DNA of 64,000 bases. Source: an uncultured Candidatus Rokubacteria bacterium. Its GTDB lineage: Bacteria; Methylomirabilota; Methylomirabilia; Rokubacteriales; CSP1-6. Location: assembly GCA_963747235.1 (NCBI GenBank), contig CAVVEU010000033.1, positions 223,282-287,281 of the forward strand. Reading direction: 5' to 3'. The notes below the pieces were generated by a model. That model was not told the DNA's origin. It did no database searches and saw only the letters and a program-made list of their open reading frames with translations. The first letter of the stretch is position 1, and each line of letters begins with the position of its first letter. Positions 10,005-51,133 of this stretch are shown here, piece by piece. The position numbers and the translations under genes were made by a program.

Positions 10005-10023
10005 GCGAACACCTCCTTATCTG

Positions 10024-10926: not shown

Positions 10927-10985
10927 CGCTCTGGCTCCAAACGTTCGCGCTAACCGGCCGCCGAGGAGCGAAGCGACGAGGGATC

Positions 10986-11004: not shown

Positions 11005-11088
11005 ACGGTCCGGTTGAGCGCGGGGTTAGGGGCCATCCTGGCCGGCGGGCGATACGGGCAGGCGGATACGCGGACGCGTGGCCTTGGG

Positions 11089-11907
11089 CTACGGTTGGGC
11101 GACCGCAATTTGACCTTCAATCGGGAATGCCAATCCGTCATCGTTCAAATAACTCTGCATTGCTTCGGTCACTTGACGGATCAATGCCTCACGCACGGCG
11201 TCGTCGACTTGGGCGACGTGGGTGGCCAGGGGCGAGCCCGCCACTTGATACCGGACGAACGCCGCGGGCGATGCAAAGCGGACCATTCGCACGTCTGCGC
11301 CCACGCGAACTGTTCGGAACCCTGCCTGCGTCAGCAAATCGCGAAGGCCGTCGGTGCGGTCACCAAACACAAACGGTGCGCGCATTACCGCAGCAGCTGC
11401 GGGGCTCACATTCAGTTCTAAGGCCGTCGCCAGGGCGGCAAAGCCAGGACTGTGGGCGAGCGCTCGCCAAACCAAGGTCACCAGGCGCCCAGTGGGCTTG
11501 AGGACCCGATGCATCTCGCGCGCAGCCTGTTGCCGGTCTGGGAAGTATTGGAACCCAAGCTGACAGAACACTGCATCAAAACTGCTCGTGTCAAACGGCA
11601 GCGCCCCGGCATCCCCTTCTCGCCAATCCACTGTCGCACCTCCGGGCGGCGCCGAGCCGCGGGCGCGGGCGAGCATGCCCGGGTTGAGATCAAGGCCTAC
11701 GACATGTCCCGTCGGTCCGACCTGTGGTGCGACCAAGCGCGTAACGGCGCCCGTGCCGCATGCAACGTCGAGCGCATGCTCACCCGCACGAAGTGCCGCT
11801 TGGGCCACGAGTACAGGTGCCCATGGCCCAAAGATGGCGGGCACGAGCTGAGTCTCGTAGACCTCTGGAGCATTGCCGCCGAGTTGCCACCCCTCCGCTT
11901 GACTCAT
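11089..11907 (-). CDS. class I SAM-dependent methyltransferase (Methyltransf_11/25-like)
   Basis: LDVACGTGAVTR motif I, DAVFC motif; probable start MSQAEGWQL. Confidence 0.85.
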   Translation of the reverse strand: MSQAEGWQLGGNAPEVYETQLVPAIFGPWAPVLVAQAALRAGEHALDVACGTGAVTRLVAPQVGPTGHVVGLDLNPGMLARARGSAPPGGATVDWREGDAGALPFDTSSFDAVFCQLGFQYFPDRQQAAREMHRVLKPTGRLVTLVWRALAHSPGFAALATALELNVSPAAAAVMRAPFVFGDRTDGLRDLLTQAGFRTVRVGADVRMVRFASPAAFVRYQVAGSPLATHVAQVDDAVREALIRQVTEAMQSYLNDDGLAFPIEGQIAVAQP

Positions 11908-11945
11908 CTGTGTCTCCTTTGTGGCCCCTACCGGCGGCTTATCCC

Positions 11946-12365
11946 TCATAGGGCTTTCTTCATCAGCGCGAGATAGAAGCCCTTGGCGTAGCCCTCAAGC
12001 CGGACTACCTCCTCGTAGCCATGCTTTTGGTAGAACCGCGGCGCCTGCCACTCGAAGGTCTCGAGAGCCGCGTTTCGCGCCCCCATCTCTCTCGCGAGAC
12101 ACTCGGCCTCAGTCAATAATCGGGAGCCGATGCCCCTCCCGCGCGCAGCCTCGTCAACCCAAAGAACTTCGACACGGAGCCAATAGAGCGCCACAATCGC
12201 TCGAATTCCACCTACGACGGACCCATCGGCCTCTCGGGCGTTGAGCCGAATGTACTCCGTCGCCGGGTACTCGCCGACATACGTATGGTTGAACTCGCGA
12301 AGCCGGCGACCAATCTCACCGGACTGAACCTCTTCTTCGGTGGCAAGCGAAATGGTGACAGTCAT
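11946..12365 (-). CDS. GNAT-family N-acetyltransferase
   Basis: ..VDEAARGRGIGSRLLTEAE.. acetyl-CoA binding motif (R-x-x-G-x-G/A); 139 aa. Confidence 0.85.
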   Translation of the reverse strand: MTVTISLATEEEVQSGEIGRRLREFNHTYVGEYPATEYIRLNAREADGSVVGGIRAIVALYWLRVEVLWVDEAARGRGIGSRLLTEAECLAREMGARNAALETFEWQAPRFYQKHGYEEVVRLEGYAKGFYLALMKKAL

Positions 12366-12380
12366 GAGGGATAACGTGCG

Positions 12381-12695
12381 TTAGGTGGAATACGCAGGGC
12401 CACCTACGCCAGGAACCACCATCGTTTTAAGGATTACCGATTCCCGGTCGGTTGCCAACGACAACAGCTCGAGGTCAGCGCGATAGGCAGCGAACTGTTC
12501 CTGACCAGGGAAGCTGACAAGATGTATCTCAAACGGGATATCCGGCGAATTCTCTTGCCCCGTGCGAATCACCTTTTCGATTGAGCCGCCATACTTCCTC
12601 ATGATTCGGGCCGCCTTTCGCTCATAGGCTTCGAATTCAGCAACGGCGCCTGGGCGGACCCACAGACTTACGACCCGATAGATTGGACTCTGCAC
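12381..12695 (-). CDS. DUF1330-domain protein
   Basis: About 104 aa; ..EFEAYERKAARIMRKYGGSIEKVIRTG..EIHLVSFPGQEQFAAYRADLE.. typical of DUF1330 (dimeric alpha/beta barrel). Confidence 0.65.
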   Translation of the reverse strand: MQSPIYRVVSLWVRPGAVAEFEAYERKAARIMRKYGGSIEKVIRTGQENSPDIPFEIHLVSFPGQEQFAAYRADLELLSLATDRESVILKTMVVPGVGGPAYST

Positions 12696-12797
12696 TCAAA
12701 CCTCCAAGCCCACCCAACGATTTGTTAGACGCCCTCAAACGGCAACTAGCCACCGCGAGTACACACCCTCTATCAGGTCAGTACCTGTCACATGTGC

Positions 12798-13250
12798 TCA
12801 GCGGGAAGTCTGCTGCCCGAGCTCTTGGGCAAGCCCGATGAGAATTCCTTCGGGGCCGCGGATGTAGCAGAGCCGATACATGTCTTCGTACTGGACCACT
12901 TTGCCGACGAGCTCCGCGCCGCGTTTGCCGAGCCGGGCGAGCGTATCGTCGACGTCCTCCACGGTGAACATGACGCGCAGGTAACCGAGAGCGTTCACCG
13001 GGGCGCTGCGGTGATCGGCGACCACAGGCGGCGCGAGAAATCGGGACATCTCGAGCCGGCTGTGACCGTCCGGTGTACGCATCATGGCAATCTCGACGCG
13101 CATGTCGCGCAATCCAGTGACGCCATCTGCCCAGGCTCCTTCGATTGGAGCGCGCCCCTCGAGCTCGAGGCCAAGTTCGGTGAAGAACTCAATGGCGGCG
13201 TCGATGTCTTCTACCACGATGCCGACGTTGTCCATACGCTTCACCGTCAT
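12798..13250 (-). CDS. VOC-family protein (glyoxalase/bleomycin-resistance fold)
   Basis: MDNVGIVVEDIDAAIEFFTELGLELEGR..; 150 aa. Confidence 0.8.
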   Translation of the reverse strand: MTVKRMDNVGIVVEDIDAAIEFFTELGLELEGRAPIEGAWADGVTGLRDMRVEIAMMRTPDGHSRLEMSRFLAPPVVADHRSAPVNALGYLRVMFTVEDVDDTLARLGKRGAELVGKVVQYEDMYRLCYIRGPEGILIGLAQELGQQTSR

Positions 13251-13261
13251 GATGTCTCCTT

Positions 13262-13337
13262 GGCGTCTAACGATCCCGCTCAGCGGCCGGGGTGAGCAAC
13301 GCGAACCCCGGTCCGCTGCAGTGGGAAGTTAGACGCC
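13262..13337. repeat. 10-bp perfect inverted repeat GGCGTCTAAC...GTTAGACGCC flanking a nested GC hairpin; a third copy of the 10-mer at 12724-12733
   Basis: Direct reading of the sequence; sits between the VOC gene start and the small membrane gene stop, and the third copy lies in the DUF1330 promoter region. Confidence 0.6.
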
Positions 13338-13595
13338 TCACTGCGACAAGCCGCGGGCCAACATGTAAATACCGGCCGCACCCACCAGGACCGACACCAC
13401 GCCAATCGCTCGGGTGACAAGCACGTAAGCCCGACTCCCTAAGTACCGCGCTCCCGAACGGGTCACGGCAATTCCCTCGGCTCTGGGGGCCAGGCGCCGC
13501 TGATTCGACTCGGCCGTCGACAGGCAGTAAATGCCTACAACCACAAACACCACGCTCACGAACCAGGGAAATACAGAACTGAGAACGTGTCCCAC
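13338..13595 (-). CDS. small hypothetical membrane protein (two TM helices)
   Basis: 85 aa, two hydrophobic helices; no family recognised. Confidence 0.4.
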   Translation of the reverse strand: MGHVLSSVFPWFVSVVFVVVGIYCLSTAESNQRRLAPRAEGIAVTRSGARYLGSRAYVLVTRAIGVVSVLVGAAGIYMLARGLSQ

Positions 13596-13659
13596 TCTGC
13601 CCTACCCCCTCAATCCCGGGCCCCCACCAGTGCGTCTCTAACTAGAAGTATCTAGGTCT

Positions 13660-13707
13660 GGATAATTCGGCCGGGCGCGGGCTTGATGCGGATAATCCGG
13701 CCGGGCG
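13660..13707. promoter_or_regulatory. direct repeats GGATAATTCGGCCGGGCG / GGATAATCCGGCCGGGCG (30-bp periodicity) upstream of the FecR-OmpA pair
   Basis: Two 18-bp copies with one mismatch; each contains a GATAAT hexamer (Fur-box-like unit). Confidence 0.4.
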
Positions 13708-13926
13708 GACCGGGGCGGTTTGGCTGGAGCGGCTTTGGGGGATGCGGGGTTGCGCATGGTCCCGTGGTGCGGGTCTAGTTTTACACAGACCTGGACATTT
13801 CTGGATGGGAGCTCGGGGGACGGGGTGCGGGAGTTCCGGCCGACGGGTTCGACGCTTTGCGCTATGATGAGGCGCTCTCGGCCCGGATGCGCTCGGGCCT
13901 CGATCCCCGCAGTCGAAGGAGACGGT

Positions 13927-14376
13927 ATGAAGCGCATGGTTCTCTCGCTGGTCGTGGTGGTGGCGGCTCTCGGGGTGGCGCCGGCGGGCGCTCAGGAGGC
14001 CGGGCATATCAAGGTGGCCAAGGGCGCGGTGCAGATCGAGCGGGCCGGGCAGAAGGTGCCGGCCACGCTGGGCGCGGTGGTGCAGGCCGGTGACGTGGTG
14101 GTGACGGGGGCCGATGGGTCGGTGGGCATCACCTTCCTGGACAACAGCCTGCTGTCCGCGGGGCCCAACAGCGTGCTCGCGATCGATCGCTTCGCCTTCG
14201 ACTCGACCACGCACCAGGGCTCCTTCGAGAGCTCGCTCAAGAAGGGCACGCTCGCCGTCGTCTCCGGCAAGCTCGCCAAGCAGTCGCCGGACGCCATGAA
14301 GGTGAAGACGCCCGCCGCGGTGCTGGGCGTGCGCGGCACCGAGTTCCTCGTCCGCACCGGCGACCCGAAGAACTGA
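13927..14376 (+). CDS. FecR-domain protein (periplasmic, signal peptide)
   Basis: MKRMVLSLVVVVAALGVAPAGAQ signal; ..GDVVVTGADGSVGITFLDNSLLSAGPNSVLAI..VLGVRGTEFLV.. FecR/DUF4880-like beta-sandwich motif; RBS GGAGAC. Confidence 0.7.
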   Translation: MKRMVLSLVVVVAALGVAPAGAQEAGHIKVAKGAVQIERAGQKVPATLGAVVQAGDVVVTGADGSVGITFLDNSLLSAGPNSVLAIDRFAFDSTTHQGSFESSLKKGTLAVVSGKLAKQSPDAMKVKTPAAVLGVRGTEFLVRTGDPKN

Positions 14377-15043: not shown

Positions 15044-17190
15044 TCAGGTGCCGGTGTAGCGGATGATCAGGACCGCCATGTCGTCTGACGGCTCGGTGCC
15101 ACCGGTGAAGGCGGCCACGTCGCGGCGGATCGCTTCACCCACCTCGGCCGCGCTCGCCGCCCCGCCCACGCGACCCAGCAGCGCGTGGAGCCGCTCCCGG
15201 CCGTAGAGCTGCCCGTCGGGGCCGGCCGCCTCGGTGATGCCGTCGGTGAACAGGCACAGCGTGTCGCCGGGCTCGAGCCGGCGCGTCGCCGGCACGTAGG
15301 GAAACCCGTCCACCGCAGCAGAGCGGCGGGCCCCCGCCCTCGGCCAGGCGGCAGCAGCGCGCGGCCGCCGCGCGGGAGCAGCAGCGGCGGCTCGTGGCCC
15401 GCGCTGCAGTACTCGAGCTCGCCGGTGCGGGCGTCGAGGATGCCGGCCAGCACCGTGACGAAGAGGTCCTCCGCGTTGTCGCGCGAGATCTCCGCGTTGG
15501 CCTCGCGCATCATCACCGCCACCTGGCCGTGCCGGCGCAGCGCGGTGCTCTTGTAGAGCGCCTTGCTGATCGCCATGAAGAGGCTGCCGGGCAGGCCCTT
15601 GCCCGAGACGTCGCCGATCATGAAGAAGAGATGGTCGGCATCCAGCAGAAAGAAGTCGTACAGGTCGCCGCCGACCTCGCGCGCGGGCTCCAGCATCGCG
15701 TACAGATCGAAGCGGCGTCTCGCCCGGAAAGGCGGCCGCCGCGCGCGGCAGGGTGCCCATCTGGATCCGGCGCGCGGCCTCCAGCTCGCCGGCCAGCCGC
15801 GCCGCCGCCTCCCGCTGCTGCTCCACCTGCCGGCGCAGCGCGCGACGCTGCGTCTGGGTCTCGGTGAGGGTGACCACGAGCATCATGGAGAACAGCAGGG
15901 CGAGGGCCACGGAGGGGACGGCGACGTCCAGGAGGACGCCCATCCTCAGATAGAGGAGCAGCCCGAACCCCGCCATCGCCGCGACCAGGACGGCGAGCAG
16001 TCCCACCGACGCGCGGGCCGGCAGCCGCGGCACCAGCCCGATGAGGAGCAGTCCGCCGACCAGCAGCCAGCCGATCTCGATCCACCGGACGAACCGCGGA
16101 CGCGAGAGCAGCGATCCCTCCACGATGTTCTCGAGCAGCTGGGCGTGGATCTCGACGCCCGCCATGTGATCGCCCACCGGCGTCGCCAGATGATCCGACA
16201 AGCCGAGCGCGGTCACGCCGATGAGCACCAGGCGACCCTGGAAGAGGCTCGCATCCGCCTGGCCCGCGAGCACGTCGGCCGCCGACACGAAGCGATCGGG
16301 ATCGTGCCGGGTGTAGTGGACCCAGGCGCTGCCGTCCGGGTCGCTGGGAGCCACGAAGGCGCCCACCCCCACCGACTGGATGCCGCGCGGCGGAGACGCG
16401 CACCGAGATCGGGGGCCCGCCTTCCCGCCACGCGGAGCATCTCGAGGCCGAGCGACGGAACCAGCCGCGCCGGCCGACCATGGCCAGCAGGGGGACGCGG
16501 CGGACCACCCCACGCTCCAGGTCCACGCTGGTCAGGCCGTGGCCGAGCGCGGCACGGTCGATCTCATCCACGCTGTGCAGCGCGGCCTCGAAGCGACGGA
16601 GGAAGGGCGCGGGATCGCCGCCGATCGAGCGCACCGGCGCGTGACGGACCTCGGTCGTCGCCTCCGGCGCGCGGCTCTCGAGGCCGGCGATGCCGAGCAC
16701 CACCGGTTGCCCGCGCATCGCCTCGGCCAGCACCGTGTCGTTCCCGCGCAACCGCGAGAGCCGCTGCGCCATGTCGGCGTCCAATGCCGGCCACCATCTC
16801 GGGCAGCCGGGCCGGCGAGAGACGGTCGGGCTCCGCCATGAGGATGGCCAGGCCGATGGCGGCCGGCCGCGCGGCCGCGACCGTCCCCACGATTCGCGCC
16901 AGCCAGGTGCGCGGCCACGGCCACTGCCCGTGCTGCCGCAGGCTCTCCTCGTCGATGGCGACGATGACCACCGGGGCCGTGCGCGGGACGCGCGGGTGGA
17001 GGCTCTGGTAGGTGTCGAACGTGCTAGCGCGCAGCAGGCGGAGCCCCGGCAGCTCCGGCAGCAGCAGCCCGAGCAGGAGCGCGGCCAGCAGCAGCGCGCC
17101 GGCCGGCCGGCCGCGCCCGCCCAGGAGCGCGCGGGCCCACCGCCGCTCCGCCCAGTGCGAGGCGGCCGCGGGCCGCTGGTCGGACGACGT
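15044..17190 (-). CDS. CHASE2 sensor domain + PP2C/SpoIIE serine phosphatase (RsbU/RsbP-like), at least three apparent frameshifts; start approximate
   Basis: N-terminal TM + CHASE2 (..VVIVAIDEESLRQHGQWPWPRTWLARI..), several TM helices, then PP2C (..LEPAREVGGDLYDFFLLDADHLFFMIGDVSGKGLPGSLFMA.. and ..PGDTLCLFTDGITEA..) across three frames. Confidence 0.7.
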
Positions 17191-25004: not shown

Positions 25005-27177
25005 ATGGGTCGCCGTCGAGCATTCGTCAGGAACATCAAGCGCGCCAGTCGGCGCGGGGTCCCGTTCATGGGTCTGGCGCTCGCCGCCACCTCGGCGTGG
25101 GCACAGACGCCGCCCGCCGATACCAAAGGACGGCAAGGACGACGTCTCGCTGCCCGGCGTGGACGTCCGAGGCCAGCGCAACCAGTTCAAGATCGAGGAG
25201 CCGAGCCTCTACAAGCTGCCCGACTCGATCAAGGACACCCCGCAGTCCATCACCGTGCTGCCCGAGCAGATGCTCGAGGAGCGCGCGCTCTTCACGCTCC
25301 GCGACGCGCTGCGCACCGTGCCCGGCATCAGCCTGGCCGCGGGCGAGGGCGGCGGCCGGCAGGGCGACAACCTCACGCTGCGCGGCTTCCCCGCCGGCAA
25401 CGACATCTACATCGACGGGGTGCGCGACCTCGGCCAGTACGGGCGCGACACGTTCAACCTGGAGTCGGTCGAGGTGCTCAAGGGCCCGTCCGCGGTCCTG
25501 TTCGGCCGCGGCTCCACCGGCGGCATCATCAACCAGGTCAGCAAGTCGCCGAAGCTCACCCCGTTCTACGAGCTCAGCGGCACGGTGGGGAACGGCCCGC
25601 AGGGGCGGGTCGCGGTGGACGTCAACCAGCCGATCGGGGGCTCGGGCGCCCTGCGCCTCAACCTGATGGGCTTCAAGGGCGAGACGCCGGGCCGGGACTT
25701 CATCGAGCAGCAGCGCCTCGGCGCGGCGCCGTCCGTCGGCATCGGCCTCAACGGCCCCACCCGCTTCATCGTGAGCTACTTCTACCTGAACGACGACAAC
25801 ATGCCGGACTACGGCTTCCCGTATCTCAACGGCAAGCCGGCGCCGGTGGGCCGGGCGGTGCGGACGGAGAACTTCTACGGCATCCCCGACCGGGACTACG
25901 AGCACGACGACGTCCACATCGGCACCCTGCGCTTCGAGCACGACTTCAACGAGAACGTGCGCCTGCGGAACACGCTGCGCCTGGCCATGATCGACCGGGG
26001 CTCGCTGGTGTCCATCCCGGCCATCGTGGGCACCCCGGCCCCGGGCACCCCGCTCGCCGCGATCCAGGTGTCGCGCACCGGCACCCAGCGGAGCCAGCAG
26101 GACACGAGCGTCATCAACACCACCGACGTGGTGGTGAAGTTCAACACGTGGAAGTTCAAGCACACCCTGGTCGCGGGCGTCGAGGCCTCCCAGGAGACGT
26201 CCGACATCCAGCGCTACACCTTCACCGGCGTCCCGAACGCCAGCCTCATCAACCCGGACAACGATCCGAACCTGGCGGGCATGGGGCGGGTCAAGAACTT
26301 CAACGGCTCCTCGTCGGCGACCGCGGTCGGCGTCTACGCGGTGGACGAGATGGCCATCACCGACCAGTGGAAGATCATGGGCGGCCTGCGCTACGACCTC
26401 TTCGACGCCCACTTCCGCAACCGCTTCGCGGCCCAGAAGTTCTCGCGGACCGACGAGGCGCTGAGCCCGCGCGCCGCGCTGATCTTCCTGCCCACCAAGG
26501 AGCAGACCTACTACTTCTCCTACGGCACCGCGTTCAACCCCTCCGCGGAGGCCCTCGTGCTCGCGCTCAACAACGCGGGCACCGAGCCCGAGAAGAACGA
26601 GACCTTCGAGCTGGGCGCCAAGTTCGACCTCTTCAACGGCGCCCTCGGACTGCGCGGCGCGGTGTTCCAGATCAACAAGACCAATGCCCGCACCACCGAT
26701 CCGGTGCTGGGCATCCAGGTCACCGACGGCCGGCAGCGGGTGCGCGGCTTCGAGATCGAGGCGGTGGGCCAGATCATGCGCGGCTGGAACATCTTCCTCG
26801 GCTACGCCTACCTCGACTCCCGCGTCACCGAGTCGTTCGACCTCCAGGTCGGCATCCCGGTCGAGGGCAAGCGCATCGCCAACGTGCCCGAGCACTCGGC
26901 GAGCCTGTGGACCACCTACGACATCACGAGCCAGTGGCAGGTGGGCGGCGGCGCCTTCTTCGTGGACAAGCGCTTCGCCAACAACAACAACGTCAACGAG
27001 GTGCCCTCCTACGTGCGCGGCGACGTCTCGATCGCCTACCGCCCGATCAAGCCCCTCGAGCTGCGCTTCAACATCCTGAACATCGCCGATACGACCTACT
27101 ACGACGCGGTGCACCCCGGCCACGTGATCCCCGGCGCGGCCCGCACCTTCCTCATGACCGGCACCTGGAGGTTCTAG
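25005..27177 (+). CDS. TonB-dependent outer-membrane receptor (siderophore/iron type), apparent frameshift near 25120
   Basis: Plug domain (..[32 protein letters not shown]..), 22-strand barrel, C-terminal ..TGTWRF*; RBS GGAGG before ATG 25005. Confidence 0.9.
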
Positions 27178-27187
27178 ACCCCGCGCC

Positions 27188-27868
27188 ATGCTCCTCCACG
27201 TCCCCAAGGTCTTGACCGAGACGCAGGTGGCGCGCTGCCGCGCGCTGCTGGACGACGCCAAGTGGGTGGACGGCCGGATGACGGCCGGCCACCTCTCCGC
27301 GAAGGCCAAGCACAACCTGCAGGTCGCCGAGGGGACGCCGGAGGCGCGGGAGATGGGCGAGGTCATCGTGACCGCGCTCGAGCGCAACCCGCTGTTCATG
27401 TCCGCCGCGCTGCCCCTGCGCGTCTTCCCGCCGCTCTTCAACCGCTACGAGCCCGGCATGGCCTTCGGGGCCCACGTGGACAACGCGATCCGGCAGGTCG
27501 CGGGCAGTCCGCTCCGGGTGCGCACCGATCTCTCGGCCACGCTCTTCCTGACCCCGCCCGAGGCGTACGACGGGGGCGAGCTGGTGGTGGACGACACCTA
27601 CGGCGCGCACTCGGTCAAGCTCCCCGCCGGCGACATGATCCTCTACCCGGCCACGAGCCTGCACCGGGTCATCCCGGTGACGCGGGGCGCGCGTCTGGCC
27701 TCGATCTTCTGGGTCCAGAGCATGGTGCGCGACGACGGGGAGCGCTCGCTGCTCTTCGATCTCGACATGGCCATCAGCCAGGTGAGCGAGGCGACCCCGG
27801 ACAACCCCGGCGTGGTCGCGCTCACGAGCTGCTATCACAACCTGCTGCGCCGCTGGGCGGACGCCTGA
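27188..27868 (+). CDS. piuC: Fe(II)/2-oxoglutarate-dependent oxygenase PiuC/YbiX family
   Basis: 226 aa; HxD...H motif (AFGAHVDNA .. LHRV); characteristic neighbour of iron receptors. Confidence 0.8.
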
Positions 27869-27881
27869 GGAGCCGGTCACG

Positions 27882-28616
27882 ATGATGCGCGCGGGACTCG
27901 CGGGCTGGCCGCTCTGGATCTCCGTCGGCGTGCACGTGGTCGGACTCGCCACCGCGTCGTCCGTCGTCGCGCTCGCGCGCCACGAGCCCGAGCGCGTGCT
28001 CGTGCCGGTCGAGCTGGTGCGGGTGGAGCCGCCGCCGCCCGAGCCGCCGAAGCCCCCGCGCGTGATCCCGCGGACGAGCCCGGTGGTCCGATCCGCCCCG
28101 ATCACCCAGACCCTGATGCAGCCGGATCCGGTGCCCCAGCCGGTCCGGCCCGAGCCCGTCCCGACCGCGCCCGATCGCCGCTACATGGCCTCGGCCAACG
28201 TGCCCGGCCCCGCGCTGGCGATCCCCGGCGACGCCGGCGCGGGCGGACTCCTGCTCCCCGCGCCCGAGATCCCGGGCGCCGCGCCGGGAGCCCGCGTCGG
28301 CACCGGCGTGGCGCGCGGCACCGCCGAGGGCGTCACGTCGTTCGCGCGCCCGCTCGGCGGCTATCAGACCACCCCCCACTACCCGGAGAGCGCGCGACGC
28401 GAAGGCGCCGAGGGCGTCGTGACGCTCCGATTCGAAGTGCTCACGAGCGGCAAGGTCGGCACGGTGCAGGTCCAGCGCTCCGCCGGGCGACCGGATCTGG
28501 ACCGGGCCGCCACGGAGGCTATCAGGACATGGCTGTTCGAGCCCGCTCGTCGAGGAAAGGAGGCCGTCGCCGTATGGGTCATCTTGCCGGTTCGCTTCGA
28601 GCTGAACGCCCGTTGA
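27882..28616 (+). CDS. tonB: energy transducer TonB
   Basis: N-terminal TM, Pro-rich spacer (PPPPEPPKPPRV), TonB C-terminal domain (..YPESARREGAEGVVTLRFEV..G.V..V..S). Confidence 0.85.
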   Translation: MMRAGLAGWPLWISVGVHVVGLATASSVVALARHEPERVLVPVELVRVEPPPPEPPKPPRVIPRTSPVVRSAPITQTLMQPDPVPQPVRPEPVPTAPDRRYMASANVPGPALAIPGDAGAGGLLLPAPEIPGAAPGARVGTGVARGTAEGVTSFARPLGGYQTTPHYPESARREGAEGVVTLRFEVLTSGKVGTVQVQRSAGRPDLDRAATEAIRTWLFEPARRGKEAVAVWVILPVRFELNAR

Positions 28617-29450
28617 GCCGCCGTCCCCGCGGTCATCACTGGACGGCCGTCGGGCTCGCCTTCTGCGCCATCGCCACCGCGGGCACCGCGGGGGCCCAGG
28701 GCATCTGGGACGATCCCGCCTTCGCGCTCTACCGCCAGGCCGTCGAGGCCATGGACCGGAAGGACTACGCGAAGGCGAGCGAGCTCTCCGGGCAGGCCAT
28801 CGCCCAGCAGCCCACGCACGTGCTCGCCCACTACCTGCGCGGGCAGGCCGCGATGTTCCAGTCGCGGTGGGAGGACGCGGCGGCCGCGTTCGGGAAGGCG
28901 GTGGAGCTCTACCCGGGCTCGTTCGCGGCCCAGCGGGACCTGGGCGGCGCGCTACGAGCAGCTCAATCGCGTGGACGACGCCGCGCGCGCCTACGAGGCG
29001 GCCCTCGCCCTGCGCGACCAGGACGATCTGCGGCTCCGCCTGGCCTTCATGCTGCTGAAGGCGAACCAGCAGCCGCGCGCGCTCACGCATCTCCAGACGC
29101 TGGCCGATCGCGACACCAAGACGCCGGAGGTCTGGAGCACGCTCGGGCGCCTGGCCTACGAGAAGAACGATCTCCCCGGCGCCGAGAAGGCCTTCACCCG
29201 CGCCGCCACGCTCCGCGACGAGGGCCGCGCGTGGTTCAACGTGGGCGTGGTGCGCACGCGGCTGAACGATCTCCCGGGGGCGCTCCAGGCCTACGAGAAG
29301 GCCGCGCAGCACAGCGAGACGCGCGAGCCCGCGCAGAAGGAAGTGGCGAAGGTGCGTGAGGCCATGAAGGGCCCGAGCACCGGCACCGCGCCCGACCGGG
29401 CGATGCCGGGCAGCGCCCCGGGCCAGCCGGTCCCGACCCGCCGCTACTAG
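28613..29450 (+). CDS. TPR-repeat protein (secreted), apparent frameshift near 28935
   Basis: Signal peptide; TPR-like helical repeats (..AHYLRGQAAMFQSRWEDAAAAFGKAVELYPGS.. ; ..WFNVGVVRTRLNDLPGALQAYEKAAQ..); TTG start overlaps the tonB stop. Confidence 0.6.
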
Positions 29451-29457
29451 CGCGATC

Positions 29458-30660
29458 ATGTCGCTGCGCACGCTGCTCTTCTGGCTGCACCTGCTGGTCG
29501 GGGTGACCGCGGGCGCGGTGATCCTGTTCATGTCGGTCACCGGCGTGATCCTGGCCTTCGAGCCGCAGATCACCGACTGGCTCGAGCGGGATCGCCGGAT
29601 CATCACGCCGCCGCCCGACGCGCGCCCGCTCTCCGCGGAGGCCATCCTCGCCAAGGCGCGCGAGGCCCGGCCGGACGTGCGCCCCACCGCGCTCACGCTG
29701 CGCGCCGACCCGAGCGCGTCGGCGGTGGTGAGCTTCGGCCGCGAGGGCGGCGCGCTCTTCGTGGACCAGTACCGCGGCGTGGTGCTGGGCGGCCTCTCGC
29801 CGGTGCACGACGCGCTCCACGAGGTGGTCGAGTGGCATCGCTGGCTCGGCTCGCGCGACAACCTCCGGCCGGTCACGGGCGCGGCCAACCTGGGCTTCCT
29901 CGGGCTCGTCGTGCTCGGCGTCTACCTCTGGTGGCCGCGCCGGTGGACGCGCGAGACGGTGCGGGCCGTCACGCTGTTCCGGGGGGGCCTCGGCGGCCGC
30001 GCGCGCGACTTCAACTGGCACAACGTGATCGGCATCTGGTGCGCGCCCGTGCTCCTGGTCCTGACGCTCACCGGCGCGATCATGTCCTACCAGTGGGCCA
30101 ACAACCTCCTCTACACCCTGACCGGCAACGAGCCCCCTCCGCCGCCGCCGGCCCCCGCCGCGGGCGCGCAGGCCGCCCGCGAGGGCCAGCGACGCCAGCG
30201 CCCGCCCGCGGCCGAGACCGGGCGCGCGGCCGCGGGGCTCGACGCGCTCTGGGCCCGCGCCGAGCGCCAGGTCCCGGGCTGGATCGCCATCAATGCCCGG
30301 CTGCCGCAGCGGCCCGATGCGCCGGTGACCTTCTTCATCCAGGAGCCGGTCGGCTGGCATCCTTCTCCGCGCTCGCAGCTCGTGCTCGACCCGGTCACCG
30401 CGGACGTGGTCAAGTGGGAGCCCTTCGCGGGGCAGAACATGGGTCGCCGGCTGCGGGCCTGGGTGCGCCCCCTCCATACCGGCGAGGCGGGCGGGCTCGT
30501 CGGCCAGACGATCGCCTTCCTGGCGTCCGCCGGCGGCGCGATGCTGGTCTGGACCGGGATCGCGCTGGCCTGGCGGCGCTTCAGGAGCTGGCGCCGCCGC
30601 GCCGGGTCGAGCGAGGCTATCCTGGCTCCCGAGGCCCGCCAAGAAGTGTCAGCAGACTGA
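29458..30660 (+). CDS. PepSY-associated TM helix protein (PiuB-like iron-regulated membrane protein)
   Basis: 400 aa; PepSY_TM architecture with four TM helices; conserved HxxxGxW (LHEVVEWHRWLG; RPLHTGEAGG). Confidence 0.85.
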   Translation: MSLRTLLFWLHLLVGVTAGAVILFMSVTGVILAFEPQITDWLERDRRIITPPPDARPLSAEAILAKAREARPDVRPTALTLRADPSASAVVSFGREGGALFVDQYRGVVLGGLSPVHDALHEVVEWHRWLGSRDNLRPVTGAANLGFLGLVVLGVYLWWPRRWTRETVRAVTLFRGGLGGRARDFNWHNVIGIWCAPVLLVLTLTGAIMSYQWANNLLYTLTGNEPPPPPPAPAAGAQAAREGQRRQRPPAAETGRAAAGLDALWARAERQVPGWIAINARLPQRPDAPVTFFIQEPVGWHPSPRSQLVLDPVTADVVKWEPFAGQNMGRRLRAWVRPLHTGEAGGLVGQTIAFLASAGGAMLVWTGIALAWRRFRSWRRRAGSSEAILAPEARQEVSAD

Positions 30661-30801: not shown

Positions 30802-31305
30802 ATGGGTGGAGTTACCGTCGCGAAACGGCTGGAGCGGCTGGTCCGGTTCGTTCCCGGAGTCGCGGGCTATCAGGACCGGGAAAATGCCCGGGCCACCGAC
30901 AAGCAGGTCCGGATGCGGCTCGTCGGCGAGATCCAGCGGCTCATCCAGAGCCTCGAGGAGGACAAGGAGCGCATCGCCGGCTCCGGCGATCTCTCCTCCC
31001 TGCCGCGCCTCGACCGGCTCGCGGGACGCCTCGAGCGCCTCGGCCGCACCGTGGAGTTCGCGGGCCGTGGCTACGCGGGCCTCTTCGATCTCCACACGGT
31101 GGACGGCGACACGCTGGAACAGCTCTACGCCTTCGACCTCGGGCTCTTCGACGCGCTGAGCGCGGTACGGGCCAAGGCGGAAGCGGTGCGCGCCGCGCTC
31201 CCCGATCCGGAGGCGCTCCGGAGCGCGGCCGAGCACATGCGGGAAGCGCTGGACGACTTCGGGGAGCTCTTCGACCAGCGCCGGCGCATCGTCGACGCGG
31301 ACTAG
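30802..31305 (+). CDS. hypothetical alpha-helical/coiled-coil protein, first gene of the SPFH operon
   Basis: 167 aa, strong RBS GAGGAGG, helical heptad-like composition; no family recognised. Confidence 0.55.
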   Translation: MGGVTVAKRLERLVRFVPGVAGYQDRENARATDKQVRMRLVGEIQRLIQSLEEDKERIAGSGDLSSLPRLDRLAGRLERLGRTVEFAGRGYAGLFDLHTVDGDTLEQLYAFDLGLFDALSAVRAKAEAVRAALPDPEALRSAAEHMREALDDFGELFDQRRRIVDAD

Positions 31306-31319
31306 GACGGACCAACGCC

Positions 31320-32376
31320 ATGTCACCGATCATGATGGAAGTCATCGAGTGGTTCGACAAGACCGGCACCGCCATCGTGCAGCGCTACCCGGAGGACGGC
31401 TCGGGCGACATCAAGATGGGCGCGCAGCTCATCGTGCGCGAGAACCAGGCCGCGGTGTTCTTCCGCGACGGCCAGGCGCTCGACGCGTTCGGGCCCGGCC
31501 GCCACACGCTCTCCACCCAGAACCTGCCGATCCTGACCCGGCTCCTCTCGCTGCCGTGGGGCTTCCAGAGCCCGTTCCGCGCCGAGGTGTACTTCGTCAA
31601 CCTGAAGGTCTTCACCAACATGCGCTGGGGCACGCGCGATCCGGTGGCCTTCAAGGACAGCCAGCTCGGCCTGATCCGCCTGCGCGCCTTCGGCAGCTTC
31701 ACCATGCGGGTCACCCAGCCGCTCCTCTTCGTCAACAGCCTGGTGGGCACGCAGGGCAGCTACACCACGGATCAGATCGAGGACTATCTCCGGGAAGTCA
31801 TCGTGGCCCGGCTGAACGACTTCCTCGGCGAGACCGTGCAGAGCCTGCTCGAGCTGCCGCGGCAGTACGACGAGATGGCGGTGGCGCTCAAGACCCGCCT
31901 GGTCGACGAGTTCCGCAAGTACGGCACCGAGATGGTGGACTTCTACATCAACCGCATCACGCCGCCCGAGGACGTCGAGCGGATGATCGACGAGCGCTCG
32001 AGCATGGGCGCGGTCGGCGATCTCGATCGCTTCCTCAAGTTCAAGGCGGCCAAGGCCATGGGCGACGCGGCCCAGGGCCACGGGGGCGGGCTGGACGGCG
32101 GCGCCGCCGCCGGGGTGGGCGTGGGCGTCGGCGCGGGGCTCGGCATGATGATGCCGGGCATGCTCGCGAAGAGCCTCGGGCGCCGATCCCGCGGGCGCCG
32201 CGGTGGCGACCGTGAGCTGCCCGGGCTGCCAGTCGGCGGTCGCGGCGGACAGCCGCTTCTGCCCGCGCTGCGGCCGCCAGATCGCGACCGCCACGCGGTG
32301 CGCGCGCTGCCAGGCCGAGCTGCCGGCCGGCGCGCGGTTCTGCTCGGCCTGCGGCCAGGCGGTGCCCGGCGCCTAG
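31320..32376 (+). CDS. SPFH/Band-7-domain protein with C-terminal zinc ribbon (COG4260-like), apparent frameshift near 32175
   Basis: ..QLIVRENQAAVFFRDGQALDAFGPGRHTLSTQNLPIL.. SPFH fold; C-terminal CPGCQSAVAADSRFCPRCG..CARCQAELPAGARFCSACG zinc ribbon only in the shifted frame. Confidence 0.75.
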
Positions 32377-32418
32377 CGCCGGCGCTCCGCCCCGCACGCC
32401 TTCTTCGACGACGTCTCC

Positions 32419-33929
32419 ATGAGCCAGGTCGTCGTCTCGACCGAGTGCCCCACCTGCAGCGGCCCCCTCGATTTCTCCGAGGGGGCCAATGCCATCCGCT
32501 GTCCGAGCTGCGGCTCGAATCTGCTCGTCACCGGCCGCAAGCAGGTGCTGAGCTACTGGGTCGCCCCGAAGGTCGAAGGCCGAGGTCGCGGGCGCCGTCG
32601 CCCGCACCGGCCGCCTCGAGGCGCGCGTGGCGGGCGCCCGGCTCTTCTTCGTGCCCTTCTACCGCCTGACCGGCCACGACTTCCAGTGGCTGGACGTGCC
32701 GCCCAAGCCCGAGCCGGAGAGCGCGGCCTTCCCCACCGTCGGCGAGAGCCTGGGTGGCGGCGAGCCCGACCGGCCCGAGATCGAGATCCCCATCGGCGCG
32801 ATGCTGGGCTGGGGCGCCGATGTGCTGCTCGGCCGCAAGGCCGGCGACACCGTGCGCGATCTGCTGGGCGAGCCCCCGACGCCCGAGCGCCCGCTCGACC
32901 TGGCCGTGCTGACCGCCATGCGCGCGACCCCATCCCGGTCCGCGCCCGACGGACAGGTGCAGTTCCTCGATCGCTACGTGGAGAAGACGTTCCCGGCCGC
33001 GGATCTGGCGGACCTCGGCGTGGCCTCGCTCGGCGTGCGCGCCCAGGTGCTCCGGGTGTCCTTGTTCGAGCGCTCGGCCCTGGCCGCGCTCGGCACGATC
33101 GTCGCGCCGCGGATCACGCCGGAGCGCGCGATGGCGCAGGGGCTCTCCGCGCGCGGCTTCGAGCACGTGATCTACCGGCAGGTCCTCGGGCGCATCCTGA
33201 GCGTGATCTATTTCCCCTTCTGGGTGGTGGAGCTCGCTCGGAATGCCGAGCGCTGGCTCACCGTCGTGGACGCGGTGGCCGAGAGCGTCGTGCAGCCGCG
33301 CGCGCCCCTGTCGCTCCGCGAAGCCCTCGAGCGGCCCGCGAGCGACGAGCCGCGCACGGTGGGGCTCCGCCCACTGGTCTGCCCCAACTGCGGCTGGGCC
33401 CTGCCCGTCGAGCCCGACGACGTGATCTTCTTCTGCGGCTCCTGCCACCGGGCCTGGCAGATCCACGGCGTCGAGCTCGGCGACATGCCGCACGAGATCG
33501 CCGACACGCGGCCGGACGCGGCGAACCCCGGCCCCGCGGCGGACGCGATCTACCTGCCGTTCTGGCAGCTCGATCCCGCGGGCGCGCCCGATGCGCCGCG
33601 CGCCTGGGCGCCCGCCTTCCGCTACCGCCGGCTCAAGGCGCTGCACGACCTGGCCGCGCGGCTGACCGCCAAGCCGCCCGCGTACCGGCCGTGGACCGGC
33701 GAGCGCCCCGCCGCGCACGGCTGCTTCTACGACGCCGAGGACGCCGCGCTGCTCGCGCGCTTCGCGGCGGCGGGCCGGCGCCGGACGCCCCGCGAGGTGG
33801 CAGGCGGCCGCGGAGGCCGAGCCCGCGTTCACCGGCGCGCGGCTCACGTGGCTGCCGTTCCGGCGCGAGGCCCGGTCGCTCCTCGACCCGTCCACCGGGC
33901 TCGCGCTCCAGGAGGGACTCCTTGGCTAG
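32419..33929 (+). CDS. double zinc-ribbon protein of unknown function (about 500 aa), two apparent frameshifts
   Basis: CPTCSGPLDFSEGANAIRCPSCG and CPNCGWALPVEPDDVIFFCGSCHRAW ribbons, each followed by an aromatic block (LSYWVAP..FFVPFYRL / AIYLPFWQLD); C-terminus ..LTWLPFRREARSLLDPSTGLALQEGLLG* only in the shifted frame. Confidence 0.6.
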
Positions 33930-33975
33930 ACGACGCGCGCAATCCCGCCGATCATGGAGCACCGCCGCGAGCACC

Positions 33976-34431
33976 GTCTTGAGCACCACTCCCGTCGCAC
34001 GCGTGGTTCGCGTCACGCTGATCGTGGTGCTCGCCGTGGGGGTCTCCGTGGTGGGCTACCACGCGCTCCGCTTCGTGCGCTCCTGCGCCACGCTCGACGG
34101 CGCGCGCGAGGCGGTGGAGGCCCACGTCCGGGGCAAGCAGGTGCGGCGGATGGCGCGGGTGCTGAAGACCGCCGATCGGGAGATCCTGGCCGCGCGGACC
34201 GCGGTGCGGGTGACCGCGCTGACCTGCGGGCCGAGCCTGCTGGGCGGCATGACGTGCCGCACGCGCTACGTGGTCAACGGCCAGAGCGTGGGGATGGAGG
34301 CCAGCGACCACTACTTCCGGGTGGACTACTCGCTGCTGGCCGGCTGGCAGGCGACGAGCGTGACCGAGACGTCCGGGCTGCGCTACTCGCTCACGCCGTG
34401 CCGCTGCTCGTGGGCCGCCGACGGCCGATAG
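33976..34431 (+). CDS. hypothetical membrane-anchored protein
   Basis: N-terminal TM (VTLIVVLAVGVSVVGY) + about 120-aa soluble domain; the start codon (TTG/GTG) is uncertain. Confidence 0.35.
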   Translation, partial: VLSTTPVARVVRVTLIVVLAVGVSVVGYHALRFVRSCATLDGAREAVEAHVRGKQVRRMARVLKTADREILAARTAVRVTALTCGPSLLGGMTCRTRYVVNGQSVGMEASDHYFRVDYSLLAGWQATSVTETSGLRYSLTPCRCSWAADGR

Positions 34432-35045
34432 CCGCGCTCGCCGGGCCGGTCGCCGTGATTGGCGGCCGGCCGCGACCGCGGGTGCGCGCGTGGCTCGTGC
34501 CGCGCGGGCGCCCGGCCCCCGAGCCTGCGCGCCCAGTCCCCGTCGCGCTTCTTTGATCCGATAAGCGGGAACACTTCCCGCACCAGCCCCTCGTACTCCT
34601 CGACGGTGCGCCGGTAGATGTCCAGCCCCGGCACCAGGTGGAGATCCAGCGTGCTGGGCGGCGCGGCCGGCGGCAGGATCGAGACGTGGATGGCCTGGAA
34701 GCACGAGCGGCCGAGCTCGGGCCGGTCCGTCACCAGGATCTCGTAGAGCTCCGGCCACTGCAGCGCCACCTCGGGCGAGCGCGCGGGCGTCTCGCGGCGG
34801 AGGTGGTCCTCCAGGTCGGCGCAGTACTTCACCTCGATGGCGAGCAGCAGGTACGAGCGGTGGCCCAGGCTCGGCTCGTCCAGCGCCTTCCAGACCACGA
34901 AGTCCGGCACGCTCTGGCCCGTGCGCATGAGCGCGGAGACCTGCGTCTCGCGCGCCACCCGCGCGACCATGTACTGCGCGCGCTTGAAGATGCCCTCGAC
35001 CAGCGCCTCCGCCATCCGGCCCTTCAGCAGATTGATGTCGTCCAT
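34383..35045 (-). CDS. hypothetical protein with a PD-(D/E)xK-like nuclease motif
   Basis: ..PDFVVWKA...YLLLAIEVKY.. resembles the D..(D/E)xK core of the restriction-endonuclease-like fold; the C-terminal 60 aa are low-complexity and may reflect a frameshift. Confidence 0.45.
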   Translation of the reverse strand: MDDINLLKGRMAEALVEGIFKRAQYMVARVARETQVSALMRTGQSVPDFVVWKALDEPSLGHRSYLLLAIEVKYCADLEDHLRRETPARSPEVALQWPELYEILVTDRPELGRSCFQAIHVSILPPAAPPSTLDLHLVPGLDIYRRTVEEYEGLVREVFPLIGSKKRDGDWARRLGGRAPARHEPRAHPRSRPAANHGDRPGERGYRPSAAHEQRHGVSE

Positions 35046-35048
35046 GGC

Positions 35049-35469
35049 TCAGCGCTGCGCGTCCGAGATCCGGGTGGCCAGGGCCCGCAGCCGGTCGAGC
35101 GTCTCCGGGCGGAGCATCGCCGCGAAGCCGGCCGGATCGGACTTGGCGCGGTCGAGCGCCGCGCTGAGCTGCCGCGGGTCGCCGCCCGTGCTCCGCGCCA
35201 GGTCCGCGAAGACCTCGGCCGCGAGGCCGTAGACCTCCTGGGCGAGCTGGGAGGAGCCCGCCATGCCCTGGACCTGCCGGTCGACCGCCGCGGCGTTCGG
35301 GTCGGTGGCGAGGATCTGGCCCCGGGCCGCCGGGTCCGCCAGCATCCGGAGGGTCGCGGCGAGGGCCTCCGCGGCGGCCGGATCGAGCGTCTGCGCGGAG
35401 AGCGCAGGTGGCCGGGAGGACGAGCAGGGACAGCGCGGCGAGCAAGGCGGTGGCGAGTCGTTTGATCAT
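35049..35469 (-). CDS. small secreted hypothetical protein, apparent frameshift near 35380
   Basis: MIKRLATALLAALSLLVLPATCA signal; helical Ala-rich body ending ..LDRLRALATRISDAQR*. Confidence 0.45.
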
Positions 35470-50340: not shown

Positions 50341-51133
50341 ATGGTCGAGGATCCCACCGACCCGCGCATCGCGGGATTTCGCGACGCGCGTGACGGTGAA
50401 TTGCGGCGCCGCGAGGGCCTGTTCCTCGCCGAGGGCCGCCTCCTGGTTCGCCGCCTGCTCGCGACCCGCCGGTTCCCCGTCCAGTCCCTCCTGCTGACGC
50501 CGCCCGCGCTCGACGATCTCCGCGACCTGCTCGCCCGCGACGACTCGACGCCCGCCTACGTGGCCTCGGCCGAGACGATCCGCGCCATCGTCGGCTTCAA
50601 GTTCCACCGCGGCTGCCTGGCCCTGGGCGTGCGCGGCGAGCCCGTCGCGCCCGAGGCGCTCATGGACCCGGTGGGCCCGCGCACGCTGCTGGCGCTCGAG
50701 GGCGTGACCGATCCCGACAATGTCGGCGCGATCTTCCGGAACGCGGCGGCCTTCGGAGTGGCCGGGGTGCTGCTGTCGAGCCACTGCGCCGATCCGCTCT
50801 ACCGCAAGGCGATCCGCGTCTCCATGGGCGCCACGCTCGCGCTGCCGTTCGCGCAGGTGCCGGACTGGGCGGCCACGCTCGCGGCCCTGCGCCAGCGCCG
50901 GATACCGGCTGGTGGCACTCTGCCCCGGGGCGGAAGCGGAGGACATCGTCGAGGTGGCGGGCCGCGCGCCGCGCCGGCCGAGGCTCGCGCTCCTGCTGGG
51001 CGCCGAGGGCGCGGGGCTCAGCGATGCGACGCGGGCCGCCGCCGACGTCGAGGTGCGCATCCCGATGGCCGCCGGAGTGGATTCGCTCAACGTCGCGGCC
51101 GCCTGCGGCATCGCGCTCCATCGCTTCGCATGA
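50341..51133 (+). CDS. SpoU/TrmH-family RNA 2'-O-methyltransferase, apparent frameshift near 50900
   Basis: ..LLALEGVTDPDNVGAIFRNAAAFGVAGVLLS.. and, after the shift, ..LLLGAEGAGLSDATRAAADVEVRIPMAAGVDSLNVAAACGIALHRF.. (SPOUT knot motifs). Confidence 0.8.

What the first reader, a model, noticed from the sequence alone, without database searches (positions are those of the whole stretch)
30802..35469. SPFH (Band-7) plus double zinc-ribbon operon flanked by uncharacterised small genes
Three co-directional genes have 15-45 bp spacers: a 167-aa coiled-coil protein, a COG4260-like SPFH protein ending in a Cys4 zinc ribbon, and a roughly 500-aa protein with two zinc ribbons. Each ribbon is followed by an aromatic block (YWVAP...FFVPFYRL and IYLPFWQLD). 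The arrangement recalls the Bacillus pspA-ydjGHI membrane-stress module (zinc-ribbon protein, unknown protein, SPFH protein), but the large double-ribbon protein has no family I can assign. Immediately downstream lie a membrane-anchored small protein, a convergent PD-(D/E)xK-like putative nuclease and a secreted small protein, all without assignable function. SPFH scaffolds together with nuclease-like partners occur in several recently described anti-phage or membrane-integrity systems, so this block is a candidate novel stress or defence module.
Basis: partly seen in the sequence, partly recalled or inferred. Interest (0 to 1): 0.7.

Follow-up and report, generated by a model that had tools for sequence, protein, structure and literature searches.

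The report
SPFH operon with duplicated YdjG-like partner
This is a conserved three-gene operon from an uncultured high-GC soil bacterium: a small helical protein, a soluble SPFH/Band-7 scaffold with zinc ribbons, and a double zinc-ribbon protein that proves to be a duplicated, anchor-less relative of Bacillus YdjG; it looks like a variant of the YdjGHI/SamGHI membrane-stress module, not an anti-phage system.

Summary
The genes exist. Unrelated genes in the window are split the same way, and close relatives carry intact genes. The breaks are therefore most likely assembly errors.

The conserved unit is three genes: a 165-aa helical-bundle protein, a Band_7_1 SPFH protein with a double zinc ribbon, and a ~500-aa protein. 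SPFH sits directly upstream of the ~500-aa gene in 52 of 55 assessable species-level loci from Methylomirabilota, Nitrospirota, Binatia and Acidobacteriota. The trio persists even where the ~500-aa protein is only 23% identical.

The "unassignable" ~500-aa protein is a tandem-duplicated homologue of B. subtilis YdjG/SamG that lacks the transmembrane segment (hhalign 93.8%, E 1.8e-7, 241 colinear columns). No PspA or TPM/YdjH gene lies nearby.

The downstream membrane, "nuclease" and secreted genes are conserved only in close relatives. The putative PD-(D/E)xK Asp and Lys vary among orthologues. PADLOC finds nothing.

Verdict: a new variant of the YdjGHI/SamGHI-type SPFH module, of moderate interest.

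The parts
30802..31305 (+). Gene 1: 167-aa soluble helical-bundle protein, first gene of the conserved trio
31320..32376 (+). Gene 2: YdjI/SamI-like cytosolic SPFH protein (Band_7_1 + Gly/Met-rich linker 32112-32165 + double zinc ribbon 32218-32355); 351 aa after frame repair
   Evidence: Pfam Band_7_1 at E 1.9e-69, DZR at E 2.1e-10. tblastn of B. subtilis YdjI gives 26% identity, E 1e-24. An intact 351-aa orthologue exists in L001.
32176..32178 (+). Frame break in the SPFH gene: one extra G (GGG in the window, GG in the intact relative)
32419..33929 (+). Gene 3: ~502-aa tandem-duplicated, TM-less YdjG/SamG-like protein (ZnR1 32446-32514; ZnR2 33380-33457; conserved hydrophobic-PFW strands at 32642-32668, 33203-33232, 33548-33574 and 33843-33869)
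32574..32578 (+). Frame break 1 in gene 3 (net +1 nt relative to the intact relative)
33799..33803 (+). Frame break 2 in gene 3 (+1 nt relative to the intact relative)
33922..34431 (+). Lineage-specific fourth gene: bitopic membrane protein (Arg-rich N-tail, one TM, Cys-containing C-terminal domain). Its TTG start overlaps the gene 3 stop by 8 nt.
   Evidence: Present only in close Methylomirabilota loci. No family hit.
34383..35045 (-). Convergent 220-aa protein with a PD..ExK-like motif. Not part of the conserved core, and a nuclease role is not supported.
   Evidence: No Pfam, NCBIfam, PADLOC or PDB-profile hit. Motif Asp48 and Lys73 vary among 14 orthologues.
35049..35469 (-). Small secreted protein (signal peptide MIKRLATALL...), co-transcribed with the 220-aa gene. 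Frame-broken in the window at about 35404.
   Evidence: An intact 149-aa orthologue exists in L001.

Best explanation
The core of the finding is a conserved three-gene operon.

Components:
- (i) A soluble 165-aa five-helix-bundle protein.
- (ii) A cytosolic YdjI/SamI-type SPFH protein: a Band_7_1 domain, a Gly/Met-rich linker and a double zinc ribbon.
- (iii) A ~500-aa protein made of two tandem copies of the cytoplasmic part of YdjG/SamG. Each copy is a zinc ribbon followed by PepSY/YpeB-like alpha+beta units with a signature hydrophobic-PFW strand. It has no transmembrane segment.

Proposed mechanism, by analogy with B. subtilis YdjGHI/SamGHI:
- In B. subtilis the YdjG-YdjH membrane pair docks the soluble SPFH protein YdjI at the membrane, as part of an envelope-stress sensor and repair platform.
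- Here the SPFH protein would oligomerise at the inner face of the membrane, and the double-YdjG protein would bind it as a dedicated partner or adaptor.
- The helical-bundle protein would be a third subunit, either regulator or output. In some Nitrospirota a REC-GGDEF cyclase takes its place.
- In this Methylomirabilota lineage, a translationally coupled single-pass membrane protein (33922-34431) may supply the missing membrane anchor.

Shown here: the homologies, the domain architectures and the gene linkage.
Inferred: the physical interactions, the membrane association and the stress function.

The frame breaks in the window are most likely sequencing or assembly errors.
For: - SPFH identity: Band_7_1 at 233.9 bits plus DZR. 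B. subtilis YdjI has the same architecture and matches the window at E 1e-24.
- Gene 3 homology to YdjG: sub-HMMs hit YdjG 55-148 at i-E 7.7e-5.
- Gene 3 homology to YdjG: sub-HMMs without the ribbon beat all 2000 shuffles (12.4 and 9.0 bits).
- Gene 3 homology to YdjG: the broad profile of the N-half aligns colinearly with YdjG 50-315 at probability 93.8%, E 1.8e-7, over 241 columns. The C-half gives 41.8%, E 2.7e-4.
- Linkage: SPFH lies directly upstream of gene 3 in 52 of 55 species-level loci with enough upstream DNA.
- Linkage: gene 1 lies a median of 11 nt upstream of SPFH in 36 loci.
- Linkage: the trio is kept at 23% gene 3 identity.
- B. subtilis function: YdjG and YdjH recruit YdjI, and YdjI recruits PspA (PMC8581546). 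SamGHI acts as a stress-sensor complex (bioRxiv 10.64898/2026.02.06.704340).
- Artefactual frameshifts.
Against: - No PspA or TPM/YdjH homologue is found in the window or within about 6 kb in any of 69 loci.
- Gene 3 has no TM segment, so a defining feature of YdjG as a membrane anchor is missing.
- Gene 1 shows no similarity to PspA (hhalign probability 0.3%) or to any characterised family.
- The YdjG homology rests on a single YdjG sequence rather than a YdjG family profile. Part of the score comes from generic zinc ribbons.
- No experiment exists for any member of this trio, and all carriers found are uncultured MAGs.
- A subfamily of gene 3 relatives (GYF_2 fusion) and three MAG loci lack the SPFH neighbour.
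Confidence: 0.6

Rival explanations
1. The block is an anti-phage or abortive-infection system. An SPFH scaffold senses infection, and a nuclease (34383-35045) or a membrane-active helical bundle (gene 1) acts as effector.
For: - The window copy of the 220-aa protein carries a PD..ExK-like pattern.
- Some distant loci sit among toxin-antitoxin and caspase-like genes (L003, L005).
Against: - PADLOC gives no hit for any of the six proteins.
- The nuclease-like gene is convergent, belongs to a separate operon and occurs only in close relatives.
- Its motif Asp and Lys vary among orthologues.
- The SPFH protein is 58-100% identical across phyla, with stable chromosomal synteny in Methylomirabilota. 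This is unlike fast-evolving, mobile defence islands.
- The helical-bundle matches are generic; designed repeat proteins score equally well.
Confidence: 0.07
2. The trio is a general SPFH-type scaffold or chaperone for assembly or turnover of some membrane or sub-membrane complex. It would be unrelated to envelope stress or the PSP network, sharing only ancestry with YdjG and YdjI.
For: - PspA and TPM are absent from all loci.
- SPFH proteins commonly act as assembly or quality-control scaffolds. Ravi et al. 2024 propose a chaperone-like role for band-7 (PMC11237479).
- Flanking genes vary between lineages.
Against: - The only experimentally studied YdjI/YdjG pair works in envelope-stress sensing.
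- No candidate client gene is conserved next to the trio.
Confidence: 0.2
3. The locus is a decaying pseudogene cluster in this genome. The frameshifts are real.
For: Four uncompensated +1 insertions affect three genes within 3.3 kb.
Against: - Frame breaks of the same kind split Pfam domains in unrelated genes across the window, and the TPR gene at 28951 is broken too.
- GC3 stays at 0.9-1.0 in the shifted frames.
- Other MAGs carry breaks at different positions in the same gene (P0037, P0105), while many relatives are intact.
Confidence: 0.05

Closest known systems
B. subtilis YdjI / SamI (Band_7_1 SPFH with C-terminal zinc ribbon; COG4260)
   Same: - Band_7_1 domain, no TM anchor, Met/Gly-rich low-complexity linker and C-terminal zinc ribbon(s).
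- Direct similarity at E 1e-24.
- Encoded next to a YdjG-like zinc-ribbon protein.
   Different: - Only 26% identical.
- Carries a double ribbon (and more in Nitrospirota).
- The gene order is SPFH before the YdjG-like gene, and no pspA or ydjH is in the operon.
B. subtilis YdjG / SamG (two zinc ribbons + YpeB/NTF2-like domain + C-terminal TM)
   Same: - Zinc ribbon followed by strand-helix-hairpin units with the hydrophobic-PFW motif.
- Shared terminal motif: '...P[FV]W[MV]V...(D/N)G.(S/T)G.V'.
- Colinear hhalign match at 93.8% probability.
- YpeB and YpmB are the top structural neighbours.
   Different: - Gene 3 contains two tandem copies of the module separated by a ~75-residue disordered linker.
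- It has one ribbon per copy and lacks the TM segment, so it cannot by itself be the membrane anchor.
pspA-ydjGHI / samGHI operon (PSP envelope-stress network)
   Same: Pairing of a YdjI-type SPFH protein with a YdjG-type zinc-ribbon protein in one operon.
   Different: - No PspA/ESCRT-III gene and no TPM-domain YdjH.
- An unrelated 165-aa helical-bundle protein is the third conserved member.
- Found in Methylomirabilota, Nitrospirota, Binatia and Acidobacteriota rather than Firmicutes.
Archaeal 'Meth_adaptin' ESCRT loci (Makarova et al. 2024, PMC10936438)
   Same: An SPFH protein with coiled-coil and zinc-ribbon regions is encoded with a zinc-ribbon-containing partner protein.
   Different: The partner there carries adaptin-appendage domains, and the loci include ESCRT components. 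No such domains were detected here.

Membership tests
YdjI/SamI-type SPFH (Pfam Band_7_1 PF13421 + C-terminal zinc ribbon) | Band_7_1 domain above the Pfam gathering score | tested here: met
   233.9 bits against a cut-off of 24, covering HMM positions 3-210 of 211.
YdjI/SamI-type SPFH (Pfam Band_7_1 PF13421 + C-terminal zinc ribbon) | C-terminal zinc ribbon(s) after a low-complexity linker, with no TM anchor | tested here: met
   DZR scores 41.1 bits (cut-off 27.3) and Zn_Ribbon_1 scores 42 bits (cut-off 25) in the frame-repaired protein. YdjI has the same layout. The highest Kyte-Doolittle (KD) hydropathy average over a 19-residue window is 1.42, in the Gly/Met linker.
YdjI/SamI-type SPFH (Pfam Band_7_1 PF13421 + C-terminal zinc ribbon) | Continuous open reading frame in this window | tested here: not met
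   A +1 insertion at 32178 separates the SPFH domain from the ribbons. It is judged an assembly error because frame breaks occur across the whole window.
YdjG/SamG-like protein | N-terminal zinc ribbon(s) followed by the YpeB/NTF2-like alpha+beta domain, with sequence similarity to YdjG beyond the ribbon | tested here: met
YdjG/SamG-like protein | C-terminal transmembrane segment (membrane anchor) | tested here: not met
   The alignment of 30 homologues ends in a conserved soluble motif, LTWFPF...DPFTG..L..LL, with no hydrophobic tail. The most hydrophobic 19-mer is a confidently modelled beta-hairpin.
pspA-ydjGHI / samGHI (PSP) operon | PspA/IM30 gene in the operon | tested here: not met
   No tblastn hit for B. 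subtilis PspA in the window (E<=1) or in 69 loci (E<=1e-3). Gene 1 against PspA gives hhalign probability 0.3%. The rest of the genome could not be searched.
pspA-ydjGHI / samGHI (PSP) operon | TPM-domain membrane protein (YdjH/SamH) | tested here: not met
   No TPM_phosphatase hit among the six proteins. No tblastn hit for YdjH in the window or the loci.
pspA-ydjGHI / samGHI (PSP) operon | Induction by envelope stress, and interdependent membrane localisation of the proteins | not testable with these tools
   Requires experiments. Known only for B. subtilis.
Known anti-phage defence systems (PADLOC-DB v2) | Any component matching a defence-system model | tested here: not met
   No hit at E<=0.01 for any of the six proteins. 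The only match is a chance-level HEC-08 hit at E 0.031 on a zinc ribbon.
PD-(D/E)xK nuclease (for the 220-aa protein, 34383-35045) | Conserved catalytic Asp and (D/E)xK residues, and similarity to a nuclease family | tested here: not met
   The motif is present in the window copy. Among 14 orthologues, Asp48 is replaced by Ala or Glu, and Lys73 by Thr, Arg, Glu or Gln, while the neighbouring residues are invariant. There is no Pfam, NCBIfam, PADLOC or PDB-profile hit. The fold was not modelled.

The most novel reading that the evidence does not exclude
The trio would be a self-contained sub-membrane machine that works without PspA. The SPFH oligomer would be capped or bridged by the soluble double-YdjG protein. 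The small helical bundle would be a membrane-inserting effector of the MLKL, CC-NLR or HeLo kind, released on membrane damage or infection. That would make it a new kind of bacterial membrane-surveillance or abortive-infection system, widespread in uncultured phyla.
Probability: 0.08. Interest if true: 0.75.

Novelty: new variant of a known kind. Interest (0 to 1): 0.4.

Why it matters
YdjI/SamI-type soluble SPFH proteins are known functionally only from B. subtilis. There they need the membrane proteins YdjG and YdjH, and they act with PspA.

This locus shows that the YdjI-YdjG pairing is much older and more widespread. The profile search finds 1259 cluster representatives of the gene 3 superfamily. 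Species-level loci come from Methylomirabilota, Nitrospirota, Binatia and Acidobacteriota.

The pairing also exists in a form without PspA, without the TPM protein and without a TM anchor on the YdjG-like partner. A new small helical protein is the third member.

Three practical consequences follow:
- A large unannotated protein family, currently auto-named 'LSD1 zinc finger' or 'RpoP', gets an assignment.
- SPFH-YdjG emerges as the invariant functional core.
- The direct SPFH-YdjG-module contact becomes a testable hypothesis.

The result also removes a false lead: there is no evidence for a defence or nuclease system.

Tried and rejected
- Pfam, NCBIfam and PADLOC on all six proteins. Only the SPFH protein is assignable. 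Gene 1 has a sub-threshold LIMLP_15305 hit.
- PDB sequence and profile searches for SPFH, gene 1, gene 3 and the nuclease-like protein. Nothing was found beyond generic zinc ribbons.
- Gene 1 as a PspA/ESCRT-III analogue: rejected.
- hhalign of the narrow gene 3 alignment against a single YdjG sequence aligned only the ribbon. A broader alignment and half-protein profiles were needed.
- rRNA or tRNA as an explanation for the lower-GC block at 9800-14000: rejected, with no Rfam or tRNA hit.
- The promoter and terminator scan of the region gave nothing informative for the operon.
- A search for further conserved neighbours of the trio found none beyond gene 1.
It was redone with database ids.

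Full report
**1. What is in the sequence**

The window is about 72% G+C, so long spurious ORFs are common. I located real coding frames with a GC3 frame plot and three-frame translations.

- Gene 1 (30802-31305, 167 aa) is intact.
- The SPFH gene starts at 31320. After '...MLAKSLG' it must change frame at about 32178 to reach its zinc ribbons and its stop at 32376.
- The next gene starts at 32419 and needs two frame changes, at ~32575 and ~33801, to reach its stop at 33927-33929.
- On the minus strand, the small secreted-protein gene (35049-35469) also changes frame, at ~35404.
- The spacers are 14 and 42 nt.

**2. Are the frame breaks real?**

A close relative (L001; 88.4% DNA identity over 9.8 kb, fully syntenic) has intact genes of 167, 351, 502, 158, 220 and 149 aa.

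- Base-by-base comparison shows that the window carries uncompensated single-base insertions at 28951 (a TPR gene), 32178 (GGG versus GG), ~32575, ~33801 and ~35404.
- Elsewhere in the window, single Pfam domains are split between reading frames. SpoIIE is split at HMM 2-94 and 109-178, SpoU methylase at 3-74 and 96-142, and SBP_bac_6 at 6-82 and 78-225.
- Two other database relatives of gene 3 (P0037, P0105) are broken at different positions.
- GC3 remains at 0.9-1.0 after each shift.

The simplest reading is an indel-prone assembly, not decay of this locus. Only the reads can prove this.

**3. The conserved unit**

- The repaired ~500-aa protein has 324 relatives in the 90%-clustered database. 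The best are intact 502-aa proteins at 93% identity, and none has a Pfam domain.
- An exhaustive profile search finds 1259 representatives at E<=1e-3, of which 650 are at E<=1e-10.
- A scan of species-representative genomes returned 61 loci, all from MAGs. They come from Methylomirabilota/Rokubacteria, Nitrospirota (Manganitrophaceae, Nitrospira, Thermodesulfovibrionales), Binatia, Thermoanaerobaculia/Acidobacteriota and Desulfobacterota-like lineages.
- In 52 of the 55 loci with at least 1 kb of upstream DNA, a Band_7_1 SPFH gene lies immediately upstream. Three edge-truncated loci still show its C-terminus, and three related MAG loci lack it.
- Gene 1 lies a median of 11 nt upstream of SPFH in 36 loci.
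- In three Nitrospirota loci a REC-GGDEF protein occupies the gene 1 position.
- A locus whose gene 3 is only 23% identical still has gene 1 (E 9e-26), then SPFH, then gene 3 with overlapping stop and start.
- No other neighbour is conserved.
- The membrane-anchored, nuclease-like and secreted genes occur only in 19 close Methylomirabilota loci, together with the downstream RidA gene. That pattern is ordinary lineage synteny.
- SPFH is the slowest-evolving member (58-100% identity) and gene 3 the fastest (33-91%).

**4. What the proteins are**

*SPFH protein.* It contains Band_7_1 (E 1.9e-69) plus a double zinc ribbon. B. subtilis YdjI has the same architecture and matches the window at E 1e-24. 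I recovered the YdjI sequence from metagenome contigs carrying pspA-ydjGHI.

*Gene 3, structure.*
- The AF2 model is good (pTM 0.75) apart from a disordered linker at about residues 100-176.
- Ravi et al. [quoted passage not shown]

*Gene 3, sequence.*
- YdjG shows the same motifs...VIPFTIS..., MYIPFWMFD and VLLPVWMVSY...MNGQTGKVVG.
- Gene 3 sub-HMMs hit YdjG 55-148 at i-E 7.7e-5.
- Ribbon-free sub-HMMs score above all 2000 shuffles.
- With a more diverse alignment (Neff 6), the N-terminal half of gene 3 aligns colinearly with YdjG 50-315 at 93.8% probability (E 1.8e-7, 241 columns). The C-terminal half aligns at 41.8% (E 2.7e-4).
- The two ribbon-containing units of gene 3 also align with each other (probability 78%).

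Gene 3 is therefore best described as a tandem duplication of the YdjG cytoplasmic module without the TM anchor.

*Gene 1.* It is a confident five-helix bundle (pLDDT 88). It has only generic structural neighbours and no relation to PspA.

**5. How it probably works**

In B. subtilis, YdjG and YdjH recruit soluble YdjI to the membrane, and YdjI recruits PspA (PMC8581546). The complex is now viewed as a membrane stress sensor, SamGHI.

Here the invariant pair is the YdjI-like SPFH protein with a YdjG-like partner. This argues that the SPFH-YdjG-module contact is the ancestral core. PspA and TPM are absent locally.

I infer the following; none of it is shown:
- SPFH oligomerises beneath the membrane. 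A conserved Gly/Met-rich segment is a candidate membrane-associating element, because both YdjI and this protein have one.
- The double-YdjG protein binds SPFH.
- Gene 1 is a regulatory or output subunit.
- In this lineage the translationally coupled single-pass membrane protein (33922-34431) may act as the tether.

**6. What it is not**

- PADLOC finds nothing.
- The 220-aa 'nuclease' is in a separate convergent operon. It has no family or PDB-profile hit, and its putative catalytic Asp and Lys vary among close orthologues.
- The defence reading is therefore unsupported, though not strictly excluded.

**7. Verdict**

The genes are real, but three are frame-broken in the window, most likely as artefacts.
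- The YdjGHI analogy is upheld and sharpened.
- The defence and nuclease idea is not supported.
- This is a new variant of a known kind of system, of moderate interest.

Noticed in passing
window 717-1701 (+), 15089-16192 (-), 28529-29450 (+), 50380-51127 (+): Unrelated genes are split between reading frames: a solute-binding protein, a CHASE2-SpoIIE phosphatase (two breaks), a TPR protein and a SpoU methylase. Single Pfam domains continue across the break in the first, second and fourth, and the TPR break is seen against the intact relative. This indicates an indel-prone assembly throughout the window.
   Followed up: yes
window 9800-14000: A block of lower G+C (0.61-0.63 against ~0.72) has weak coding signal and no rRNA, tRNA or Rfam match. 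It contains a SAM-methyltransferase-like ORF (11089-11949, -) and a glyoxalase/VOC-like ORF (12798-13250, -). It may be a foreign or decayed island.
   Followed up: partly
window 25159-30660: An iron-uptake-type cluster lies directly upstream of the operon: TonB-dependent receptor, PiuC-like 2OG-Fe(II) oxygenase, TonB_C protein, TPR protein and PepSY_TM protein. It is syntenic in L001 but replaced by ABC-transporter and amidohydrolase genes in L002, so it is not linked to the trio.
   Followed up: partly
L035 3394-4830, L038 1731-3182, L054 155-1603: In three Nitrospirota loci a REC-GGDEF diguanylate cyclase sits 30-41 nt upstream of the SPFH gene, in the position gene 1 normally occupies. This hints at a c-di-GMP signalling link.
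   Followed up: partly
L075 4350-6197 (protein P0452): A distant subfamily of gene 3 relatives (615 aa, weak N-terminal GYF_2 hit) stands alone without an SPFH neighbour. Three MAG loci (L066, L068, L069) also lack SPFH.
   Followed up: partly
P0094 residues 133-151 (L007); window gene 3 linker, about 32800-32870: The otherwise disordered linker of gene 3 holds a short conserved helix. In Nitrospirota versions it is strongly hydrophobic (FFLLEFVIGVITNLFQWCL; Kyte-Doolittle (KD) hydropathy 1.78 over 19 residues). It could be a membrane-binding element that replaces the missing TM anchor.
   Followed up: no
L012, L013, L014, L020, L023, L024: Contigs labelled Acidoferrum, Limnocylindria, Deferrimicrobiaceae, Verrucomicrobiia, Dormiibacterota and Nitrosotalea carry loci 69-89% identical and fully syntenic to the Rokubacteria one. 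These are probably mis-binned or mislabelled MAG contigs.
   Followed up: no
window 33922-33929: The TTG start of the membrane-anchored protein overlaps the stop codon of gene 3 by 8 nt, which suggests translational coupling. This makes it a lineage-specific fourth operon member.
   Followed up: partly
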